From an uncultured Solirubrobacterales bacterium (lineage in GTDB: Bacteria; Actinomycetota; Thermoleophilia; Solirubrobacterales; Solirubrobacteraceae), in the NCBI GenBank assembly GCA_963706765.1, contig OY970168.1:2886700-2950699 (forward strand): DNA of 64,000 nucleotides. The letters are read 5' to 3'. The notes below the pieces were generated by a model. That model was given only the letters and a program-made list of their open reading frames with translations. It was not told the DNA's origin and did not search any database. Of the stretch, positions 4,626 to 61,462 are shown one piece after another. Position numbers and translations under genes: made by a program. Numbering within the stretch: position 1 is the first letter of the stretch; each line of letters opens with the position of its first letter.

Positions 4626-4628
4626 GCG

Positions 4629-4700
4629 GCGCGGCGGCGGGCCTTCAGCGCGGCGGCTGGCCTTCAGCGCGGCGGCTGGCCTTCAGCGCGGCGGCGGGCC
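4629..4700. repeat. Tandem repeat, 19-bp unit GCGCGGCGGC(G/T)GGCCTTCA, about 3.8 copies
   Basis: Fills the gap between the convergent stops at 4625 and 4701. Confidence 0.9.
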
Positions 4701-6517: not shown

Positions 6518-8179
6518 TCAGACGTGGATCGGCTCGCCCGCCGGGGCCTGCGCAGCGCCACCCGCGGGCTCGCCGGCGAGCACCGGCTCAGCTGCGTGCG
6601 GGACGGGCCGGCCGTTCTGCAGCGCCTGCGCGCCGTCCGTGCGCCCAGGGCTCGCGGCGTTCGCGTGAATATGCGGGCGCACCAGCGTCCAGGCCAGCAG
6701 CGCGCCCAGCAGCGCGAGCCCGCCGCTCACATACAGCGCGTTGGAGAGCGCATAGACGTAGGTCTGGCTCATCGCCGTCTCCACGACCTTCGGCAGGTGG
6801 CCGGTGCTCGCGCCCGAGCCGAGCGCTTCGACGAGCTTGCCGCGCTGTGCGACGGTCGCATGCGGCAGCAGCGTCGCAAGCCGTCCCCGTCCGAGCGTCG
6901 CGACGATCGCGCCCATCACGCTCACGCCGAGCGTCCCGCCGACCATCCGCACCATCGAGAGGATTCCCGAGGCCACACCCGCCCTGCCGCGGTCGACGGC
7001 ATTCATCGCGGCGGTGCTCATCGGCGACATCACGAGCCCGATTCCGAGGCCCATCGCGACGAAGCTGACGAGCAGATACGCGTAGCTGGAGTGGGTGGTG
7101 ATTCCGGTCATCCAGAACATCGCGAACGACACCAGCAGCAGCCCCGCGGTCATCAACGGCCGCGATCCGACGCGGTCGGCCATCCGTCCAGCGATCGGTC
7201 CGGCGACCATCACGAGGATCGTCGAGGGCAGGAAGCGCAGCCCGGCCTCGATCGGGGAGTAGTGGAGGATGTCCTGCATGTACAGCGCGAGGTAGAAGAA
7301 CATCGCGAACATCGTGAAAGAGACGATCAGCGCGACCACGTTCGCGCCGACGAAACCGCGCGAGCGGAACACCTCGAAGTCCACCATCGGGGCGCGCCTG
7401 CGCCGCTCGATCGCGACGAAGCCGGCGAGCGCCAGCGCGGAGATGCCGAACAGCGCCAGCACGCGCGTGGAGCTCCAGCCCCAGGAGTTGCTCTGCACGA
7501 GTCCCAGCACCAGCGCGCCGAGCGCGATCGTCAGCGCTCCGACGCCCGGGAAGTCGATCTCGCTGGCGGTGCGCTTGGCACTCTCATCGCGAGACTCGCG
7601 GGCGGCGAACAGCGTCACGACTATCGCCAGCGCGGCCACGGGGACGTTGAGGAAGAAGATCGATTGCCAGCTCACGTCCTGCACCAGCACGCCCCCGACA
7701 ACCGGGCCGATCGCGAGCGCCATAGCCGACACGCCCGCCCACGTCCCGATCGCCCGACCGCGCTCGTGGGGGTCGAAGGTGTTGGTGATGATCGAGAGAG
7801 TCGCGGGCATCATGAAGCCCGAGCCGATCCCCTGGATCGCGCGGAACACGACCAGCCAGGTGTCGCTCTGCGCGAGCCCGATCATGAAGCTCGAGGCGCC
7901 GAACACGACCACGCCGAACAGGAACATCCGCCGCCGTCCGAACAGATCGCCGAGCCGCCCGGCAGTCACCAGCAGGACCGCGAACGTGAGCGTGTATGCG
8001 TTGACGGTCCACTCCAGCGAGGACGTCGACGCGTCCAGGCTGCGCTGTATCGACGGCAGCGCGACGTTCACGACCGTGTTGTCGAGCATGATCATGAACA
8101 GCGCGAAGCACATCGCCCCGAGCGTCCACCAGCGGCGGTTCTGCTCGGTGATCTGCGGCAGCGGGATGTACTTGCTCAT
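6518..8179 (-). CDS. MFS transporter, DHA2 (EmrB/QacA) family
   Basis: LDNTVVNVALPSI, GRLGDLFGRRR and GPVVGG motifs; about 14 TM segments. Confidence 0.95.
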   Translation of the reverse strand: MSKYIPLPQITEQNRRWWTLGAMCFALFMIMLDNTVVNVALPSIQRSLDASTSSLEWTVNAYTLTFAVLLVTAGRLGDLFGRRRMFLFGVVVFGASSFMIGLAQSDTWLVVFRAIQGIGSGFMMPATLSIITNTFDPHERGRAIGTWAGVSAMALAIGPVVGGVLVQDVSWQSIFFLNVPVAALAIVVTLFAARESRDESAKRTASEIDFPGVGALTIALGALVLGLVQSNSWGWSSTRVLALFGISALALAGFVAIERRRRAPMVDFEVFRSRGFVGANVVALIVSFTMFAMFFYLALYMQDILHYSPIEAGLRFLPSTILVMVAGPIAGRMADRVGSRPLMTAGLLLVSFAMFWMTGITTHSSYAYLLVSFVAMGLGIGLVMSPMSTAAMNAVDRGRAGVASGILSMVRMVGGTLGVSVMGAIVATLGRGRLATLLPHATVAQRGKLVEALGSGASTGHLPKVVETAMSQTYVYALSNALYVSGGLALLGALLAWTLVRPHIHANAASPGRTDGAQALQNGRPVPHAAEPVLAGEPAGGAAQAPAGEPIHV

Positions 8180-13774: not shown

Positions 13775-13918
13775 GGCCGCGGAGGATAGAGGGCCTCGCT
13801 TGCGCGGGTCATGGAGAGCGCGCATGATCGCTCGGCATACTCGGGCTGCCGCCGAGGCGCAGGCGGTCTCGCGCCGAGACCGATCACCGACATCGACGAT
13901 TTTCGGAGGACCTTCCAG

Positions 13919-15466
13919 ATGAGTGACGCCAAGCCCCCGCAGAGCACCACCGATGCAGGCATACCGGCGCCCAGCGACGAGCACTCGCTCACGCTCGGAC
14001 CGGATGGGCCGATCCTGCTGCAGGACCACTACCTGATCCAGAAGATGGCTCAGTTCAATCGCGAGCGCGTACCGGAGCGGGTGGTGCACGCGAAGGGGGG
14101 CGCAGCTCACGGGTTCTTCGAAGTCACGGAGGACCTCACGCAGTGGACGAGCGCTGCGTTCCTGGCGCAGAAGGGCAAGCGCACCGACACCTTCCTGCGC
14201 TTCTCCACAGTCGCGGGGGAGCTCGGGTCGGCGGACACCGTGCGCGACCCGCGGGGGTTCGCGCTGAAGTTCTACACCGAGCAGGGCAACTACGACCTGG
14301 TCGGCAACAACACCCCGATCTTCTTCATCCGCGACCCCTCGAAGTTCTCGGACTTCATCCACTCCCAGAAGCGCATGCCCGACACGAACACGCGCTCCAA
14401 CAACGCCCAGTGGGACTTCTGGTCGCTCTCGCCCGAGTCCTATCACCAGGTGTCCTTCCTGATGTCCGACCGCGGCACCCCGCGCACGTGGCGGCACATG
14501 AACGGCTATGGCAGCCACACCTTCATGTGGGTCAATGCCGCCGGCGAGCGCTTCTGGATCAAGTACCACTTCAAGACCGTCCAGGGGATCGAGAGCTTCA
14601 CCGATTCAGAAGCCAAGGCGATGGCGGCGGAGGACCCCGACTACCACCTGCGTGACCTGTTCGAGTCGATCGCCCGCGATGATGCCCCCGAGTGGAGCGT
14701 TCAGATCCAGGTGATGCCGTTCGAGGACGCCAAGGACTACCGCTTCAACCCCTTCGACCTGACCAAGGTCTGGCCCCATGGCGACTACCCGCCGATCACG
14801 ATCGGCCGCCTGGTGCTCGACCGCAACCCGGAGAACTACTTCGCCGAAGTCGAGCAGGCGTCGTTCGAGCCCGCGAACATGGTGCCGGGCATCGGTCCGA
14901 GCCCCGATCGGATGCTGCTCGGGCGGCTGTTCAGCTACCCCGACACCCATCGCTACCGGATCGGTCCCAACTACCTGCAGCTGCCGATCAACCGGCCGCG
15001 CAGTGAGGTGCGCTCATACAACAAGGACGGCGCCATGCGCTACGAGCACGCGGGCGCCCAGCCGGTGTATGCGCCCAACAGCTTCGGCGGTCCCCACGCC
15101 GATCCCAAGGCTCACCCCGACCCCTCCTGGTGGGCCGACGGCGAGATCGTGCGCACCGCCCAGACGCTGCACAGCGAGGACGGCGACTTCGTCCAGGCGG
15201 GGACTCTCTACCGCGAGGTCCTGTCCGAGCGCGACCGCACGCATCTGGTCGAGAACATCATCGGTCACCTCGGCAACGACGTCAGCCGCGAGGTCCAGCA
15301 GCGCGCGGCTGGGCACTGGCGCGAGGTCGACGCCGAGCTCGGCGCGCGCATCGCCGCGGGCATCGGCCTCGAGGGCTCGGGCAACGGCGCCGTTCCCGAG
15401 CATCCCGGCCAGCCCTCCGAGCAGGGAGCGGCGGTGGCCGGCGCCGCCGAGCCCGCGCGCGGCTGA
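13919..15466 (+). CDS. katA: Monofunctional heme catalase (small subunit)
   Basis: RERVPERVVHAKG, VGNNTPIFF and RLFSYPDTHRYR motifs; GGAGGA RBS. Confidence 0.97.
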   Translation: MSDAKPPQSTTDAGIPAPSDEHSLTLGPDGPILLQDHYLIQKMAQFNRERVPERVVHAKGGAAHGFFEVTEDLTQWTSAAFLAQKGKRTDTFLRFSTVAGELGSADTVRDPRGFALKFYTEQGNYDLVGNNTPIFFIRDPSKFSDFIHSQKRMPDTNTRSNNAQWDFWSLSPESYHQVSFLMSDRGTPRTWRHMNGYGSHTFMWVNAAGERFWIKYHFKTVQGIESFTDSEAKAMAAEDPDYHLRDLFESIARDDAPEWSVQIQVMPFEDAKDYRFNPFDLTKVWPHGDYPPITIGRLVLDRNPENYFAEVEQASFEPANMVPGIGPSPDRMLLGRLFSYPDTHRYRIGPNYLQLPINRPRSEVRSYNKDGAMRYEHAGAQPVYAPNSFGGPHADPKAHPDPSWWADGEIVRTAQTLHSEDGDFVQAGTLYREVLSERDRTHLVENIIGHLGNDVSREVQQRAAGHWREVDAELGARIAAGIGLEGSGNGAVPEHPGQPSEQGAAVAGAAEPARG

Positions 15467-15485: not shown

Positions 15486-15556
15486 GGACGGGCCGCATGC
15501 GGCCCGTCCCGGGGCCGCACATGTGCGGCCCCGCCGGTCGGCGCATGCGCCGACCG
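15486..15556. repeat. Three back-to-back perfect palindromes (24, 24, 22 bp), each centred on CATG
   Basis: GGACGGGCCGCATGCGGCCCGTCC; CGGGGCCGCACATGTGCGGCCCCG; CGGTCGGCGCATGCGCCGACCG. Confidence 0.9.
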
Positions 15557-15620
15557 CACTGCCGGCTGCGCGTCGGCGGTGCATGGCCCAGGCACGCGCA
15601 CGCTAGAGCCCTAGACTGCG

Positions 15621-17858
15621 ATGGCAATGCGGCGCAGGGTGACCTTCTCGCGCAATCTGACGCTGTCGCTGTCGCGCACGTGTCGCTGCTACTGCAAGTA
15701 CTGCGCCTTCGCCACCCACCAGGCGCATCTGCATCCGCCCGATGAGGTGCTGCAGATTCTCGATCGTGCGCAGCGACGCAACGTCAAGGAGCTGCTCGTG
15801 CTGACGGGCGAGCGCCCGGAGGTCAACGGCGAGGTCGCGGCGCGGCTGCGCGAGTACGGGCACGAGGACTTCACCTCCTATGTCGTGTGGACATGCGAGC
15901 GCGCGCTCGAGCGGGGCCTGTTGCCGCATACGAACCTGGGCGTGCTCGCGCGCGAGGATCTCGTGCGCCTGCGCGAGGTGACGGCTTCGCAGGGGCTGAT
16001 GCTCGAGTCGGTCTCCGAGCGGCTGATGGAGACGGTCCATGCGGGCTCGCCGACCAAGCATCCCGCGCAGCGCCTGCAGACGATCCGGCTCGCGGGCGAG
16101 CTGCGAATCCCGTTCACCAGCGGGATCCTCGTGGGGATCGGCGAGAGCGAGGAGGAGCGCATGCAGTCGCTGGACGCGCTCGCCGCTCTGCATGCCGAGC
16201 ACGGTCACATACAGGAGGTGATCCTGCAGAACTTCGTTCCCCACCAGAGCTACTACGGGCGCGAGCCCGCGGAGATCGCCGATGCGGCCGCGCGCGAGTA
16301 CTGGCGCACCGGCGTGGGGGAGGGCAGGCCGCAGCTGCAGCTGCCCGCATGGGCTTGTCCGGTGAGCATCGATGACATGAAGCGCCTCGTCGCCGAGGCC
16401 CGCAGGCTGATGCCCGGCGTCGGTATCCAGATCCCGCCGAACCTCGCCGACTGGTGGCCTGAGCTGATCGCCTCGGGGGCGAGCGACCTCGGCGGGCTGA
16501 GCGCCAACGGCGATCACATATCCCCCGAGCACCCGTTTCCCTCGCCCCACCAGGTCCGCATCCGCTTGCAGCGCGACGGGATCGCGCTGACCGAGCGCCT
16601 GTGCGTGTACCCGAGCTACATCTCCGCAGACTGGCTCTCACGCGGGGTGCTGGACACGATCAAGGTCAAGTACTGGAGCTTCATCCCCAGGCGCGGCTCG
16701 GGGCGCACCGACCCGCCCGCGCCGATCCGCCGCGACCTAGTGGCGGGCGCGGTGGCGCGTGCGCGCGAGGGGCGACCGCTCGATGGCGAGGAGCTGACTG
16801 CGCTGTTCGCCGAGACTCGCCCCCAGGCGATCGAGGAGATCCGGCTCGCCGCTGATGAGCTGCGCTCGGAGCTCGCCGGGGAGACGGTCACGTTCGTCGT
16901 AAATCGCAACATCAACGTCTCCAACGTCTGCACCGTCGGCTGCGCCTTCTGCGGCTTCGGCCAGAGCAGGCGCTCGCCCGACGCATACGAGCACTCCGAG
17001 GAGGAGTTCGCAAGGCGCGTGCGCGAGGCGCTCGCCTACGGCGCCAGCGAGCTCTGCATCCAGTCGGGCATCCACCCCGACTGGGCCCTCGAGGACTATT
17101 TGCACTGGCTCACCTTCGCCAAGCGCGTCGCTGCTGGCGAGGGGGCGGACATCCACCTGCATGCATACAGCCCAATGGAGATCGCGCACATGTGCGACGT
17201 CTCCGGCCTGCCTCCCGCGGAGGTGTTCGCGCGCCTGCGCGATGCCGGTCTCGGATCGACGCCGGGCACCGCCGCGGAGGTGCTCCACGATGGAGTGCGC
17301 GAACGGATCTCGCCGAACAAGCTGCCGGTGGCCCGCTGGGTGGAGATCATCGAGGCCTCTCACCGCGCCGGGCTGCGTTCGACTGCGACCGTGATGTTCG
17401 GCCATATCGAGGAGCCCTGGGAGCTCGCCGAGCACATGCGGGTCGTCCGCGAGCTGCAGGAGCGCACCGGCGGCATAACCGAGTTCGTGCCCCTGTCCTT
17501 CATCCCCTTCCAGACGCTCCTCGGGCGCACCCACGGCGTGGAGGAGATCTCGCGCGCGGAAAACCTCAAGCACACCGCCGTCTTTCGGCTGGCGCTCGGT
17601 CGCACCGTGGCGAGCCTGCAGGCGAGCTGGGTGAAGATGGGCCTCGACGCCGCCACCGAGTCGCTGCGCTGGGGCGTCAACGATCTCGGCGGGACGCTGA
17701 TGGAGGAGTCGATCAGCCGCCTCGCGGGCAGCTACCACGGCACGAGGCTCGACCCCGAGGAGCTGATCGCCGCCGCGCACCGCGCCGGCAGGCCCGCCGC
17801 GGAGCGCAGCACCCTGTATGAGATTCGGCGTCGCTACGAGCTGCCGGTCGCAGCCTGA
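15621..17858 (+). CDS. fbiC: FO synthase, fused CofG/CofH
   Basis: Two radical-SAM CX3CX2C motifs (CRCYCKYC and CTVGCAFC), QGLMLES, ASWVKMG, NDLGGTLMEESI. Confidence 0.95.
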   Translation: MAMRRRVTFSRNLTLSLSRTCRCYCKYCAFATHQAHLHPPDEVLQILDRAQRRNVKELLVLTGERPEVNGEVAARLREYGHEDFTSYVVWTCERALERGLLPHTNLGVLAREDLVRLREVTASQGLMLESVSERLMETVHAGSPTKHPAQRLQTIRLAGELRIPFTSGILVGIGESEEERMQSLDALAALHAEHGHIQEVILQNFVPHQSYYGREPAEIADAAAREYWRTGVGEGRPQLQLPAWACPVSIDDMKRLVAEARRLMPGVGIQIPPNLADWWPELIASGASDLGGLSANGDHISPEHPFPSPHQVRIRLQRDGIALTERLCVYPSYISADWLSRGVLDTIKVKYWSFIPRRGSGRTDPPAPIRRDLVAGAVARAREGRPLDGEELTALFAETRPQAIEEIRLAADELRSELAGETVTFVVNRNINVSNVCTVGCAFCGFGQSRRSPDAYEHSEEEFARRVREALAYGASELCIQSGIHPDWALEDYLHWLTFAKRVAAGEGADIHLHAYSPMEIAHMCDVSGLPPAEVFARLRDAGLGSTPGTAAEVLHDGVRERISPNKLPVARWVEIIEASHRAGLRSTATVMFGHIEEPWELAEHMRVVRELQERTGGITEFVPLSFIPFQTLLGRTHGVEEISRAENLKHTAVFRLALGRTVASLQASWVKMGLDAATESLRWGVNDLGGTLMEESISRLAGSYHGTRLDPEELIAAAHRAGRPAAERSTLYEIRRRYELPVAA

Positions 17859-17861
17859 ACG

Positions 17862-17887
17862 GGGGACGCCGCCGCGGCGGCGTCCCC
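17862..17887. terminator. Perfect 26-bp palindrome between convergent genes
   Basis: GGGGACGCCGCCG|CGGCGGCGTCCCC between the fbiC and carotenoid oxygenase stops. Confidence 0.6.
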
Positions 17888-31513: not shown

Positions 31514-31586
31514 GCCGGCCGCGCTCCGATCACGACGCCGGTCTCTGCTTCGGCCGGCGCCGCGACGAGTCCTCGGAAGGGCCGGT

Positions 31587-46128: not shown

Positions 46129-46650
46129 GTGTTCCACATCGAGCTGCGCCAGTTTCCGCACAACGCCTGGCGTTTCAACCTCAGCGAGGGCGAGCTGTTC
46201 GCGGCAGTGCTCGAGCCATGGCTGCGCGACCAATGGATCGAGCTCAGCGAACGCAAGTGGAAAGCCGACCAGGCGCGGCTGACGGTGCTCGAGGGACCGA
46301 GCCTCGCGGTGCAGCAGCTCTCGATGGGACGCGGCTGGCGAAACGCCGAGCGCGAGAGCACGGACGTCACCGAGCAGGTGATGGCGCAGGCGCGGGCACG
46401 CGTCGCCAGCGCCGGCGCGCAAGCACACGCCCTGGCGGGCCCGGGCCCGGGCCCGGGCGGGGCGAGCCCGCTCGCCGGCGGGCAGGCAGCCGGCGTGCAG
46501 GAGGAGGTGAGGCGAGCGCTGATCATGCTCCTCGGCAACGATCCCGAGGCGCTTCTGCAGGCCTGGCAGCTCGCTGCAGGTCGGCGTCCCGAGCTCTCTC
46601 CGAGCGAGTGTCTCGCGCTCGCCGAAAGAACGCTCCGATCGCTCGGTTGA
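46129..46650 (+). CDS. Hypothetical protein
   Basis: Protein-like ORF between the MTase and tRNA-His (HIELRQFPHNAWRFNLS...). Confidence 0.7.
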   Translation: MFHIELRQFPHNAWRFNLSEGELFAAVLEPWLRDQWIELSERKWKADQARLTVLEGPSLAVQQLSMGRGWRNAERESTDVTEQVMAQARARVASAGAQAHALAGPGPGPGGASPLAGGQAAGVQEEVRRALIMLLGNDPEALLQAWQLAAGRRPELSPSECLALAERTLRSLG

Positions 46651-58669: not shown

Positions 58670-60475
58670 TCAGGAATTACGCCGCGATGCGACGTGGGCG
58701 GCGAGGATCGCGATGTCATCGCGCGCCCCATCGTCGAGGTCGACGAGCTCGAGCAGCGCGTCGATCACGTCCTCGGCGAGCATCTGCGAGCCTTCGCCGA
58801 GCCTCGCGATCATCTCCTGCACGCTCACCATCCGCTCGGGGGCGTGAGCCTCGGCGAGGCCGTCGGTGTACAGCGCCAGCGTGTCGCCCGGCTGCAGGAT
58901 CGTCGAGGCGTTCTCGATCACGGGATCGTCGAACACGCCGAGCAGCGTCCCGCGCTCGCCGAGCTCCGCCGTTCCGCCAGCGGCGCGCGTCACCAGCGCC
59001 GGCGGGTGCCCGGCGGCGGCGAGCGTCACGTTCACCTCGGGGCCCGACAGGCCGAAGCGGGCGAGGATCGCGGTCGCGAAGCGGCCCTCGAAGTCCTGCT
59101 TGAGCATCGCCTCGTTGATCTCCGCGAGCACGTCGGCGGGATGCTCGCGCTCGCGCGCCAGCGCGAGCGTGGTGTGGCGCAGGAAGCCGGTCAGCGCAGC
59201 CGCTTCGGCGCCCTTGCCGCATACGTCTCCGACGACGAGCCAGCAGCTGTCGCGATCGGCGAACACGTCATAGAAGTCGCCCCCGACTTCGTTGCCGGCT
59301 CCCATCGGGCGAAAGAAGCTCGCCAGCTCGAGGCCCGGGATCGCCGGCAGCTCCGCCGGCATCAGGCTCCGGCGCAGGGTCTTTGCGACTTCCGCCCGCT
59401 CCTCGTACAGCCGCGCGTTGTCGTAGGCGAGCGCCGCGCGACCGCTCAGATCCTCGAGGATCGCGAGCTGGCCGGGGTCGAAGCGAGCGCCGCTGCGCAG
59501 CCGCAGGAACGAGATCGTGCCGAGCAGCCGCCCGCGCGCGACCATCGGGAACACCGCCGCCGAGCGGTAACCGGCTTCGCGCATGAAACGGCGGTGCTCA
59601 TCGCTCTGGGCCACCAGCCCGAGCGTCACGGAGTCGTGCAGATCGGCGACGAGGTAGGGCTTGCGGTCGCGCAGCACATGTGCGACCGGGTGCGTGCCGT
59701 CGAGGTCGGGCCGGTAGATCTCGCGCAACCGTTCGACCTCCGTCGCGATGCGCGGATCGATCGCTGCTGCGACCGTATTGGTGATCGTCGCGCTCAGGTC
59801 CACGACGTCGATCACGCACAGCTCGGCGAGTTCCGGCACGGCGGTGTTCGCGATCCGCCGCAGCGTCTGGCGCGGATCGAGCGAGCTGTCGAGCTGCGCG
59901 GTCGCTGCCGTCAGGAATTCCAGTCGCCAGCGCTGTTCGCGCATGCGTTCAAGCGCGATGTGCACGACGCTCAAGGCCAGCAGCGCGAGCACGATGCCGA
60001 CGCACGCGATCGCGCCGAATGTGCTCGAGACGTCGCTGTATACGAGCGGCGCCAGGAACCCGACCAGGCCGGCGAAGGAGATCAGCAGAAAGCGCACCCG
60101 CGGCTGAAACGCGGCCGCGTGGCCGATCGCGAAGAAGTAGATCAGCCCGAACGGGCTGCTGCCGCCGCCGGTCGACGCGCACAGGACCGCCACGAGCACG
60201 ACTCCCCACAGGTCTGCGAACCACGCCAGCAGCAGTCCGCCGCGACGCTCTATGTAGGCGAGCACCAGCAACGTCGCCGTGAGGATCGCCGAGGCTGCGA
60301 CCGCGATCACCCCGGCCGGCGAGCTCACGTCGGGAAGCAGCACCGAGGTCGCCGTCAGCGCGGCGCCGACCGCGTACAGACCCGCCGCGCTGATCACGGC
60401 CGCGTGCGCTTCGCGATCGTTGACCCGCCCCGCTGGCCCGGCGCTCACCATCGCCAATTCACGGCCGACAGTCAT
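58670..60475 (-). CDS. Membrane-bound GAF + SpoIIE/PP2C (RsbU-like) phosphatase; start approximate
   Basis: N-terminal TM bundle, GAF region, VGGDFYD, VGDVCGKG, AGHPP, YTDGL, DDIAIL. Confidence 0.9.
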   Translation of the reverse strand: MTVGRELAMVSAGPAGRVNDREAHAAVISAAGLYAVGAALTATSVLLPDVSSPAGVIAVAASAILTATLLVLAYIERRGGLLLAWFADLWGVVLVAVLCASTGGGSSPFGLIYFFAIGHAAAFQPRVRFLLISFAGLVGFLAPLVYSDVSSTFGAIACVGIVLALLALSVVHIALERMREQRWRLEFLTAATAQLDSSLDPRQTLRRIANTAVPELAELCVIDVVDLSATITNTVAAAIDPRIATEVERLREIYRPDLDGTHPVAHVLRDRKPYLVADLHDSVTLGLVAQSDEHRRFMREAGYRSAAVFPMVARGRLLGTISFLRLRSGARFDPGQLAILEDLSGRAALAYDNARLYEERAEVAKTLRRSLMPAELPAIPGLELASFFRPMGAGNEVGGDFYDVFADRDSCWLVVGDVCGKGAEAAALTGFLRHTTLALAREREHPADVLAEINEAMLKQDFEGRFATAILARFGLSGPEVNVTLAAAGHPPALVTRAAGGTAELGERGTLLGVFDDPVIENASTILQPGDTLALYTDGLAEAHAPERMVSVQEMIARLGEGSQMLAEDVIDALLELVDLDDGARDDIAILAAHVASRRNS

Positions 60476-60650
60476 CGTCACTGGCTGACTCACTTCCCCC
60501 TGGTCCCTTCTCCCCGGAACCCAGGCATGACTTGGCATGGGCCCGGTTTCATCGCTCATGTCAATGGTATGCCGATCAACTTCCCGCGACGCCTGCTGCG
60601 CGGGCTCTTGCGGGCGCGTCGTCGCACCGAAGCCAACCGCCTGCTGCGGT

Positions 60651-60720
60651 GCGGCCGGCGCATGCGCCGGCCGCGGGGCCGCGCATGCGCGGCCCCGAGC
60701 CGCGCCGCATGCGGCGCGGC
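60651..60720. repeat. Second triplet of CATG-centred perfect palindromes (24, 24, 22 bp)
   Basis: GCGGCCGGCGCATGCGCCGGCCGC; CGGGGCCGCGCATGCGCGGCCCCG; GCCGCGCCGCATGCGGCGCGGC. Confidence 0.9.
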
Positions 60721-60805: not shown

Positions 60806-61462
60806 ATGCGGTTCGCCGATCGTCGTGACGCCGGCAGGCAGCTCGCGGCCGAGCTTCAGCCGCTCGCGCGCGAGCACCCGGTGGTGGTGGCGTTGCCGCG
60901 CGGCGGCATCCCCGTGGGGTACGAGGTGGCGCGGGCGCTGGCCGCGCCGCTCGAGATCATCGCCGTGCGAAAGCTTGGCGCGCCCGGTAACGACGAGCTC
61001 GCGGTCGGCGCCGTCGCCGAGGACGGCACGGGCGTGCTCGATCGCGACTCGGCGGCGAGATTCGGGATGACCGACGCGATGCTCCAGGCGCGAGTGAGCG
61101 AACGCTCGCGCGAGCTCAAGCGCCACGTCGAGCGCTACCGTCGCGGCCGCGAGCCGCTGACGCTCGAGGGTCGGACCGTGATCCTCGTCGATGACGGCCT
61201 CGCGACTGGGCTCAGCGACCTGGCCGCGCTGCGCGCGCTGCGCGCTCGCGGTGCCGCCCGGATCGTGCTCGCGGTGCCCGTCGGAGCGCGCGAGTCGATC
61301 GCGAGGCTGGCACATGAGGCTGACACGATCGCGTGCCTGCTTGCGCCGCAGTTCCTCGGCAACGTGGGGGCCTGGTACGAGGACTTCGCCGCGGTCACCG
61401 ACGAGGAGGCCCTCGCCCTGCTCGCGCGCGCGTCCAGCGGCGCCGAGGTTGGTGCCGACTGA
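60806..61462 (+). CDS. Phosphoribosyltransferase family protein
   Basis: FADRRDAG, LPRGG, VRKLGAP, VDDGLATG. Confidence 0.92.
   Translation: MRFADRRDAGRQLAAELQPLAREHPVVVALPRGGIPVGYEVARALAAPLEIIAVRKLGAPGNDELAVGAVAEDGTGVLDRDSAARFGMTDAMLQARVSERSRELKRHVERYRRGREPLTLEGRTVILVDDGLATGLSDLAALRALRARGAARIVLAVPVGARESIARLAHEADTIACLLAPQFLGNVGAWYEDFAAVTDEEALALLARASSGAEVGAD

What the first reader, a model, noticed from the sequence alone, without database searches (positions are those of the whole stretch)
15486..15556. Triplet of CATG-centred perfect palindromes, with a twin 45 kb away
Seen: three abutting palindromes of 24, 24 and 22 bp upstream of fbiC. The same layout occurs at 60651-60720. The middle units differ only by a compensatory pair (CGGGGCCGCACATGTGCGGCCCCG vs CGGGGCCGCGCATGCGCGGCCCCG), while the outer arms differ in sequence but stay perfectly symmetric. 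Inference: symmetry and length are maintained rather than sequence, suggesting a REP/BIME-like repeat family, a cruciform or protein-binding element, or methylation-site arrays. I do not recognise a described family.
Basis: partly seen in the sequence, partly recalled or inferred. Interest (0 to 1): 0.65.

Follow-up and report, generated by a model that had tools for sequence, protein, structure and literature searches.

The report
Dispersed arrays of perfect CATG palindromes
The two palindrome triplets are two copies, in opposite orientation, of an apparently undescribed repeat family found between genes in uncultured soil Solirubrobacterales, and the two arms of each unit change together at about the speed of ordinary silent mutations.

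Summary
The window holds six perfect 22-24 bp palindromes centred on CATG, in two triplets. None occurred in 300 shuffles.

Reverse-complemented, site 2 matches site 1 unit by unit, with 4 differences, all mirrored. However, 22 of 224 triplets from other genomes are closer to site 1 than site 2 is. The "twin" is therefore a family member, not a recent copy.

One truncated scan of species genomes found 114 blocks with such arrays from 90 assemblies. All are Solirubrobacterales or unlabelled Actinomycetota MAGs.
- Arrays have 3-7 units at about 24 bp spacing, with a core C(G/A)CATG(C/T)G.
- Three unit types recur in a preferred order, A-B-C.
- The flanks are weakly conserved.
- About 94% of units are perfect.
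- Only CATG centres show this perfection.

In orthologous arrays the arms differ by mirrored changes at about the third-codon-position rate, which rules out independent compensatory mutation.

Arrays lie in all intergenic contexts and in either orientation. Some sit in frame inside LeuRS, LysA and ABC-F genes.

Best reading: a selfish, REP/MITE-like hairpin-array repeat kept symmetric by DNA-level arm-to-arm copying. It is not an fbiC regulator.

It fails the REP definition: no GTAG or CGTC tag, and no stem mismatch. What moves the element is unknown.

The parts
15486..15509 (.). Unit A of site 1: GGACGGGCCGCATGCGGCCCGTCC, a 24-bp perfect palindrome
   Evidence: type A consensus GGccGgGCCGCA
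15510..15533 (.). Unit B of site 1: CGGGGCCGCACATGTGCGGCCCCG, a 24-bp perfect palindrome with a CACATGTG core
   Evidence: type B consensus CGGGGCCGCACA
15535..15556 (.). Unit C of site 1: CGGTCGGCGCATGCGCCGACCG, a 22-bp perfect palindrome after a 1-nt linker
   Evidence: type C consensus cCgGncGGCGCA
60651..60674 (.). Unit C of site 2: GCGGCCGGCGCATGCGCCGGCCGC. It differs from site 1 unit C by one mirrored T/C..A/G change.
60674..60697 (.). Unit B (CGCG-core variant) of site 2: CGGGGCCGCGCATGCGCGGCCCCG. It overlaps the previous unit by 1 nt.
60699..60720 (.). Unit A of site 2: GCCGCGCCGCATGCGGCGCGGC. It differs from site 1 unit A by two mirrored changes.
13811..15466 (+). Catalase gene; its TGA stop lies 19 nt before site 1
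   Evidence: Pfam PF00199, E 1.6e-187
15621..17858 (+). fbiC (fused CofG/CofH radical SAM enzyme). The conserved start is probably the second ATG at 15627. A TAGACT -10-like hexamer lies at 15612-15617.
   Evidence: Pfam PF04055 x2 and PF19288; sequence
58670..60560 (-). SpoIIE (PP2C) phosphatase with a GAF domain and a membrane N-terminus. It is transcribed away from site 2. The start is uncertain (60451-60560).
60806..61462 (+). Phosphoribosyltransferase-family gene, transcribed away from site 2, starting 85 nt after it

Best explanation
The two triplets are two copies, A-B-C at site 1 and C-B-A at site 2, of a repeat family specific to uncultured soil Solirubrobacterales. The family consists of arrays of 3-7 abutting perfect palindromes of 22-26 bp (mode 24). 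Each unit has an invariant C(G/A)CATG(C/T)G core, a four-position variable zone in each arm and semi-conserved ends.

The arrays behave like selfish, REP/MITE-like DNA. They sit wherever they are tolerated: after stop codons, between convergent, tandem and divergent genes, and in frame inside genes (24 bp is 8 codons). They are not control sites for their neighbours.

Shown: each unit stays exactly symmetric while its arms change at about the neutral single-substitution rate.

Inferred: a change in one arm is copied onto the other in a single DNA-level event. This could be synthesis or repair templated by the hairpin or cruciform, of the kind known as quasipalindrome template switching. Alternatively it could be an enzyme dedicated to the element.

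Inferred, not shown: if transcribed, each unit folds into a 9-10 bp G+C stem with a CAUG tetraloop, so an array could stop RNA polymerase or block 3' exonucleases as a side effect. The agent that spreads the element and the reason the CATG core is kept are unknown.
For: Family and spread. Of these, 114 carry true palindrome arrays, from 90 assemblies, all Solirubrobacterales, Solirubrobacteraceae or unlabelled Actinomycetota MAGs made with different assemblers. The 6 hits from other taxa are plain tandem repeats. No arrays were found in 281 kb of control soil contigs or in 74 kb of viral hits, and plasmids gave no match. More than 20 short contigs of an independent soil run carry the array-like segment with unrelated flanks.

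Anatomy.
- Unit lengths are 24 bp (342 units) and 22 bp (90); linkers are 0-1 nt. Centre-to-centre spacing is 23-26 bp.
- A-B-C trigrams number 56, against 14.6 +/- 3.5 when unit types are shuffled.
- The flank signature is TGnKGTT; GTT occurs at 45 of 219 array ends.

Perfection is specific to the element. Of CATG sites, 455 are perfect through 11-bp arms, 16 have one mismatch and 13 have two. No other palindromic centre has more than 5 perfect cases among up to 21,786 sites. Ordinary hairpins with 3-8 nt loops in the same DNA are not unusually perfect.

Mirrored evolution. Across 56 orthologous array pairs there are 125 homologous unit pairs, of which only 16 are identical, with 179 mirrored substitutions. 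Variable-zone divergence is 0.19-0.31 per position. Third-codon positions in the flanks diverge by 0.25-0.29. L016/L037 show a mirrored 1-nt indel. Only about 11 of roughly 470 units have a mismatch inside an arm.

The window's own site 1. Orthologous arrays of 6 and 5 units lie upstream of fbiC in L105 and L096, at about 84% flank identity.

Selfish behaviour.
- Arrays lie in frame in LeuRS in three species, in an ABC-F ATPase in two, and in LysA.
- There is no orientation bias relative to transcription (19:15).
- Divergent regions are used as often per kb as tandem ones.
- No gene recurs beside the arrays.

Mechanism precedent: template switching between arms makes quasipalindromes perfect (PMC7202029) and can maintain perfect hairpin stems (PMC8794818), both found. 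Predicted folds are -63 to -74 kcal/mol.
Against: - No movement was seen directly. I found no clean filled-versus-empty site between close relatives, no target-site duplication and no mobilising gene.
- Arrays persist at orthologous sites across species, so transposition, if it occurs, is rare.
- A generic template-switch process should also make other hairpins perfect, and it does not. Either there is a threshold effect (only very stable, spacer-free G+C palindromes extrude) or an element-specific factor is needed.
- Arrays are about 3-fold enriched per kb between convergent genes, and many start 0-13 nt after a stop codon. This also fits selection for a role at gene ends.
- The locus set was chosen by a pattern that requires three CATG cores, so unit statistics are conditioned on that. 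Gene calls came from my own simple caller. Homologous units were accepted only at 70% arm identity or better.
- The copy number in the window's own genome is unknown.
Confidence: 0.6

Rival explanations
1. The arrays are purpose-built, factor-independent transcription terminators or insulators: clusters of very stable RNA hairpins without a U-tract, as proposed for high-G+C bacteria. Selection on RNA structure keeps them intact. Site 1 would shield the fbiC promoter from catalase read-through.
For: Site 1 starts 19 nt after the catalase stop codon and ends about 55 nt before the -10-like box of fbiC. Many family members start 0-13 nt after a stop. Arrays are about 3-fold enriched per kb between convergent genes. 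The predicted triple hairpin is -63 to -74 kcal/mol on either strand. Hairpin clusters have been reported as terminators (PMC8355165).
Against: - Site 2, and 14 other arrays, lie between divergent genes, where nothing needs terminating.
- Arrays lie in frame inside LeuRS, LysA and ABC-F genes.
- Selection on RNA would tolerate G-U pairs and loop variation. Only 6 G:T mismatches occur among roughly 470 units of about 10 arm positions each, and the loop is always CATG.
- Unit types, their order and the flank motifs mark a sequence family, not convergent structures.
- Mirrored change at the neutral rate cannot come from selection on independent double mutations.
- No RNA data cover the site.
Confidence: 0.15
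2. The arrays are phased binding or modification sites on double-stranded DNA. A dimeric protein (a nucleoid-associated protein, a recombinase-like protein or a CATG/GCATGC methyltransferase or restriction system) would recognise the CRCATGYG core every 24 bp.
For: The core is invariant and the centre spacing is fixed at 23-26 bp. A 12-bp half-site suits a dimer. The inner six arm positions and the outer two are conserved, while the middle four vary.
Against: - A protein reading the core has no need for the variable zone to stay exactly self-complementary, yet it does in about 94% of units.
- CATG outside arrays occurs at about the frequency expected from base composition: about 2.6 per kb observed, against 2.8 per kb by my calculation. 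There is no sign of restriction avoidance.
- No candidate gene recurs next to arrays.
- Methylation could not be tested.
Confidence: 0.08
3. The arrays are canonical REP/BIME elements mobilised by a RAYT (TnpA-REP, HUH Y1) transposase encoded elsewhere in the genome.
For: They are dispersed, mostly extragenic, palindromic, clustered in arrays and variable in unit number between relatives, as BIME-2 clusters are in E. coli (PMC3333891).
Against: - The defining 5' GTAG tag is found at 3 of 461 units. CGTC is found at 41 of 461 and is not positionally conserved.
- The units have no orientation and no stem mismatch. For the E. coli enzyme, making the REP stem perfect abolished binding and cleavage (PMC3333891).
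- No Y1-like or other gene recurs beside arrays in 945 kb.
- The surveys of tagged REPs that I read do not mention Actinobacteria.
Confidence: 0.07
4. The triplets are chance palindromes in G+C-rich DNA, or an assembly or polishing artefact.
For: G+C-rich DNA produces many short inverted repeats. The window comes from an uncultured organism's assembly that I could not identify.
Against: There were none in 300 shuffles. The same architecture appears in 90 assemblies made by long-read and short-read pipelines and in contigs of an independent run. Orthologous copies are conserved across species.
Confidence: 0.01

Closest known systems
REP elements and their BIME clusters, especially BIME-2 arrays of E. 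coli (PMC3333891; tagged REP superfamilies, PMC3733652)
   Same: Short, G+C-rich, hairpin-forming palindromes. They are dispersed mostly between genes and often just after stop codons, are clustered head to tail in arrays whose unit number varies between relatives, come in a few unit types, and can lie in either orientation.
   Different: - The units here are perfect palindromes through the centre, so they have no polarity.
- They have no GTAG or CGTC tag and no stem mismatch, both of which the E. coli enzyme needs.
- The linkers are 0-1 nt.
- Three unit types occur in an A-B-C order, rather than alternating REP and inverted REP.
- The host is an actinobacterial order.
- No RAYT gene is known for them.
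Rickettsia palindromic elements (RPE) and other bacterial MITEs (review PMC10969869)
   Same: Small non-coding palindromic repeats that insert in frame into protein-coding genes as well as between genes. The Solirubrobacterales arrays also have weakly conserved inverted flanks.
   Different: RPEs are single elements of 100-150 bp with a conserved sequence, not stacks of 24-bp perfect palindromes. I found no target-site duplication and no parent insertion sequence here.
Quasipalindrome template-switch mutagenesis (PMC7202029) and maintenance of hairpin stems by template switching (PMC8794818)
   Same: A one-step process that copies one arm of an inverted repeat onto the other. It gives mirrored substitutions and indels, and perfect stems.
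   Different: It is known as a sporadic mutational process at scattered sites. Here it would have to act persistently on one element family and not on other hairpins of the same genomes.
Clustered-hairpin intrinsic terminators (PMC8355165)
   Same: Two or more adjacent stable hairpins within 80 nt of a stop codon, without a U-tract.
   Different: Those are unrelated sequences defined by position and structure. These are a sequence family with a fixed core, and they also occur in divergent promoter regions and inside genes.

Membership tests
REP / BIME (RAYT-associated) | Conserved tetranucleotide tag (GTAG or CGTC) at one end of the palindrome | tested here: not met
   GTAG at the 5' end of 3 of 461 units. 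CGTC near the 3' end of 41 of 461, with no positional conservation.
REP / BIME (RAYT-associated) | Imperfect palindrome with a stem mismatch or bulge that gives polarity and is needed for TnpA-REP binding | tested here: not met
   455 of 484 candidate units are perfect through 11-bp arms. The requirement is described in PMC3333891.
REP / BIME (RAYT-associated) | High-copy, dispersed, mainly extragenic | tested here: inconclusive
   Dispersed at unrelated loci in 90 assemblies and mostly intergenic. The window has 2 arrays in 64 kb.
REP / BIME (RAYT-associated) | A RAYT / TnpA-REP gene in the genome, typically flanked by its REPs | not testable with these tools
No gene recurs beside arrays in 945 kb. 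The eight genes scanned around the two window sites, including all four immediate neighbours, are housekeeping genes.
MITE | Terminal inverted repeats and a target-site duplication | tested here: inconclusive
   The flanks are weakly conserved (TGnKGTT at one end, often GGAA at the other). About 14 arrays have an inward-pointing AT-rich motif. No target-site duplication was recognised. The window's two copies lack clear flank motifs.
Intrinsic terminator (hairpin cluster) | Lies within about 80 nt downstream of a stop codon, on the transcribed strand | tested here: inconclusive
   Met for site 1 (19 nt after the catalase stop). Not met for site 2 (divergent region).
Intrinsic terminator (hairpin cluster) | RNA 3' ends map to the hairpins | not testable with these tools
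   No RNA run covers the array. Only conserved fbiC coding words were found.
Any Rfam RNA family | Score at or above the family's gathering threshold | tested here: not met
   The best hits score 24 and 12.7 bits, against thresholds of 75 and 48.
CRISPR array | Identical repeats separated by unique spacers of about 30 bp | tested here: not met
   Units differ from each other and abut, with 0-3 nt linkers.

The most novel reading that the evidence does not exclude
The arrays may be the substrate of a dedicated, still unknown enzyme system of this Solirubrobacterales clade. It would recognise the CRCATGYG centre of a hairpin or cruciform and rebuild each unit from one arm. This would be a self-symmetrising mobile element of a kind not described. 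It would explain why only CATG-centred units are perfect while other hairpins in the same genomes are not. It would also explain why the core is fixed while the arms drift at the neutral rate.
Probability: 0.25. Interest if true: 0.85.

Novelty: new variant of a known kind. Interest (0 to 1): 0.62.

Why it matters
If confirmed, this family is a clean natural case of one-step mirrored evolution. There are hundreds of independent palindromes whose arms change together at the neutral rate, with almost no intermediates. That makes the long-standing question of how perfect stems are created and kept directly measurable in genomes.

It would also extend REP/MITE-like hairpin repeats to a little-studied actinobacterial order. 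It warns annotators that 8-codon 'PHAA/AHAP'-type inserts in LeuRS, LysA or ABC-F proteins of these MAGs are repeat DNA. For this window specifically, it removes the idea that the triplet is an fbiC regulatory site.

Tried and rejected
- An exact look-up of the FbiC protein found nothing on record.
- RNA evidence: metatranscriptome contigs share only conserved fbiC coding words and nothing on the array.
- DNA runs hold only relatives, with shares of 0.10 or less. One run was useful as independent evidence of dispersal.
- The single metagenome scan, using the phosphoribosyltransferase, returned only relatives of about 50% identity. It gave no orthologue of site 2 and no arrays, so it served only as a negative control.
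- The viral-contig hits to the pattern are not palindrome arrays.
- Plasmids gave no match.
- Rfam gave nothing above threshold.
- I rejected the idea that the perfection reflects a lineage-wide property acting on all hairpins. Other inverted repeats are not unusually perfect.
- I rejected the idea that site 2 is a recent intragenomic copy of site 1. Triplets in other genomes are more similar to site 1.
- I rejected a directional function. There is no orientation bias relative to transcription.
- A search for clean empty-versus-filled orthologous sites failed. At two places where relatives carry arrays and the window does not (W about 4626-4700 and W 31514-31586), the intergenic DNA is not alignable.

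Full report
THE OBSERVATION. Reading the two sites directly and scanning the window for perfect palindromes confirms six units. They lie at 15486-15509, 15510-15533 and 15535-15556, and at 60651-60674, 60674-60697 and 60699-60720. Each is 22-24 bp and centred on CATG. The 64-kb window (69.2% G+C) contains only seven perfect palindromes with arms of 11 bp or more, and six of them are these. Dinucleotide-preserving shuffles give 0.11 on average, and never a CATG-centred one in 300 trials.

Its statement that the outer arms 'differ in sequence' misses the main point. Reverse-complemented, site 2 aligns to site 1 unit by unit (score 45 against 30). There are one, one and two differences in the three units, and each is mirrored in the opposite arm. 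The two sites are therefore the same three-unit element in opposite orientation. They are not especially close to each other, however: 22 of 224 triplets from other genomes are more similar to site 1 than site 2 is.

SURROUNDINGS. Site 1 lies 19 nt after the stop of a catalase gene and about 65-70 nt before fbiC (Pfam). fbiC has a TAGACT -10-like hexamer just before its conserved start in the window and in two relatives. Site 2 lies between a SpoIIE/GAF phosphatase gene and a phosphoribosyltransferase gene that point away from each other. Nothing there needs terminating. The eight genes I scanned around the two sites include no transposase.

THE FAMILY. I therefore spent the single scan of species genomes on a pattern of three CATG cores at the observed spacing, for which my estimate of chance matches in the whole collection is about 4.
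- 114 blocks come from 90 assemblies labelled Solirubrobacterales, Solirubrobacteraceae or unlabelled Actinomycetota. They were made by long-read and short-read pipelines, and all carry true palindrome arrays.
- The six hits from other taxa are simple tandem repeats.

In the 881 kb of Solirubrobacterales blocks there are 461 perfect CATG-centred palindromes (24 bp: 341; 22 bp: 88), against 85 for all other centres together. They form arrays of 3-7 units with centres 23-26 bp apart and linkers of 0-1 nt.

Controls and an independent check:
- 281 kb of soil contigs fetched for another purpose, and the viral-contig hits, contain none.
- Plasmids gave no match.
- In an independent soil run, more than 20 short contigs carry the array-like segment joined to unrelated flanks.

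The thing is therefore real, dispersed and specific to this lineage.

ANATOMY BEYOND 'SYMMETRY ONLY'. Units fall into three recurrent types:
- A: GGccGgGCCG|CATG
- B: CGGGGCCGC(A/G)|CATG
- C: cCgGncGGCG|CATG

The order A-B-C occurs 56 times, against 14.6 +/- 3.5 when unit types are shuffled. Longer arrays read ABCABC. The two ends differ. The C/B end is usually preceded by TGnKGTT (GTT at 45 of 219 ends, about 25 times expectation). The A end is often preceded by GGAA. About 14 arrays also carry an AT-rich motif (CGCATGCTTnnAAAAGCTGATGtTGTcc) pointing inward, sometimes on both sides. The window's two copies are bare triplets without clear flank motifs. Between orthologues, change is concentrated at arm positions 6-9 from the centre. 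The inner core and the outer two positions are conserved.

PERFECTION IS SPECIFIC TO THE ELEMENT. Of all 2,916 CATG sites, 455 are perfect through 11-bp arms, 16 have one mismatch and 13 have two. The random background peaks at 6-7 mismatches. For the other 15 palindromic centres, the perfect class holds at most 5 of up to 21,786 sites. Hairpins with 3-8 nt loops elsewhere in the same DNA are, if anything, less perfect than in the control contigs. Two perfect units centred on GTATAC inside or beside arrays show that even the centre can change in a mirrored way.

MIRRORED EVOLUTION AT THE NEUTRAL RATE. Flank comparisons identify 56 orthologous array pairs. Within them there are 125 homologous unit pairs, of which only 16 are identical. 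The rest differ by 179 substitutions, each present in both arms. L016/L037 show a mirrored 1-nt deletion. In the closest pairs (flank identity 85% or more), 21 unit pairs differ by exactly one mirrored change. Only 2.9% of random unit pairs differ by one change or none, so these are changes in place, not replacements.

Divergence in the variable zone is 0.19-0.31 per position. That equals third-codon-position divergence in the adjoining genes, 0.25-0.29. Two independent hits, the second waiting for a specific base at a specific site, cannot run at the single-hit neutral rate. Tunnelling through a deleterious intermediate is slower still; this follows from standard population-genetic theory by my own reasoning. 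Only about 11 of roughly 470 units carry a mismatch inside an arm. I therefore infer that a change in one arm is copied to the other in one DNA-level event. The known process that does this is template switching within quasipalindromes (PMC7202029; PMC8794818). Because other hairpins are not kept perfect, one of two things must hold. Either only very stable, spacer-free G+C palindromes extrude often enough, or an element-specific enzyme is involved. I could not tell which.

THE WINDOW'S OWN SITE 1 IS OLD. Two relatives at about 84% flank identity (L105, L096) carry arrays of 6 and 5 units in the same place upstream of fbiC, although their upstream genes differ. The units correspond but differ by mirrored changes: for example, A is GGACGGGCCG, GGCGGGGCCG or GGTGGGGCCG. 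Conversely, relatives carry arrays at two places where the window has none (after W about 4625, and in W 31514-31586). Those intergenic stretches are not alignable, so no clean empty site was obtained.

WHAT THE ARRAYS DO. The evidence favours tolerated selfish DNA over a dedicated function.
- Arrays occur in convergent (25), tandem (47) and divergent (15) regions. Per kb they are about 3-fold enriched between convergent genes, but are as frequent in divergent as in tandem regions.
- Orientation relative to transcription is random (19:15).
- Several arrays lie in frame inside genes: LeuRS in three species, an ABC-F ATPase in two, LysA, and the FtsZ tail. There they encode PHAA/AHAP-like peptides. 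This is possible because 24 bp is 8 codons.
- Many arrays start 0-13 nt after a stop codon, and TAG stops are enriched there (27 of 55 against 241 of 798). That fits either target preference or tolerance.
- As RNA or single-stranded DNA, each window triplet folds into three 9-10 bp stems with CAUG loops, at -63 to -74 kcal/mol on either strand. A side effect on termination or mRNA 3' ends is therefore plausible, but untested.

COMPARISON WITH WHAT IS KNOWN. The closest kind is REP/BIME, especially BIME-2 arrays. The defining features fail, however: there is no GTAG or CGTC tag and no stem mismatch. For the E. coli enzyme, making the REP stem perfect abolished binding and cleavage (PMC3333891). 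RPE and MITE elements share the in-frame insertions (PMC10969869). Hairpin-cluster terminators (PMC8355165) share position only. Rfam has nothing. Paper searches found no description.

Earlier notes of this scan report the same kind of arrays in other Solirubrobacterales windows. I treated them as leads and re-derived the claims from sequence here.
- the three unit types and their order;
- the polar flanks;
- the variable-zone map;
- the rate comparison with third-codon positions;
- the demonstration that perfection is confined to CATG centres.

VERDICT. The triplets are two ordinary members of an apparently undescribed, lineage-specific hairpin-array repeat. I rate it a new variant of a known kind, of moderate to high interest mainly because of the one-step mirrored evolution. 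The mobilising agent, the role of the CATG core and any cellular function remain open.

Noticed in passing
window 17862-17887: A perfect 26-bp palindrome, GGGGACGCCGCCGCGGCGGCGTCCCC (CGCG centre), lies 3 nt after the fbiC stop, between convergent fbiC and an RPE65-family oxygenase gene. It looks like an ordinary bidirectional terminator hairpin and is not a member of the CATG family.
   Followed up: partly
window 4626-4700: About 3.5 tandem copies of a 19-bp unit (GCGCGGCGGCTGGCCTTCA) fill a convergent intergenic gap. After the orthologous gene end, relative L104 carries an A-B-C palindrome array (its downstream gene differs), and L105 has almost no spacer.
   Followed up: partly
window 15612-15629; L105 about 7115-7140: fbiC has a TAGACT -10-like hexamer 6-9 nt before its conserved ATG (MRRRV...) in the window and in L105, and a TAGACT in the same position in L096. 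This suggests a leaderless or near-leaderless mRNA, with the real start at 15627 rather than 15621.
   Followed up: no
L048 3037-3263; L105 6758-7061; L096 6956-6967; L117 3029-3210; L040 1728-1814: An AT-rich motif, CGCATGCTTnnAAAAGCTGATGtTGTcc, sits next to about 14 arrays, always pointing into the array. It is sometimes on both sides in inverted orientation and sometimes itself tandemly repeated. It may be the true end of a longer form of the element, or a promoter-like piece. It is absent from the window.
   Followed up: partly
L059 2482-2575, L064 3562-3657, L091 667-738; L082/L111; L071 2622-2765; L034 5085-5202: Arrays lie in frame inside leucyl-tRNA synthetase (three species), an ABC-F ATPase (two species), diaminopimelate decarboxylase and the C-terminal tail of FtsZ. 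They add 24-49 residues rich in PHAA/AHAP.
   Followed up: partly
L007 2225-2470 (Acidimicrobiia MAG): A 28-bp tandem repeat has a short GACGCATGCGTC palindrome in each copy. It shares the CGCATGCG core, but it is an ordinary tandem repeat with spacers, not the perfect-palindrome family.
   Followed up: no
window 46436-46458: A short (GGGCCC)n run gives overlapping 20-bp perfect palindromes inside a predicted gene. This is low-complexity sequence, unrelated to the finding.
   Followed up: no
L025 about 2758-2783; L004 about 170-190: Units with a GTATAC centre instead of GCATGC (for example GGCAGAGCCGTATACGGCTCTGCC) are still perfect palindromes. The centre itself has changed in a mirrored way.
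   Followed up: partly
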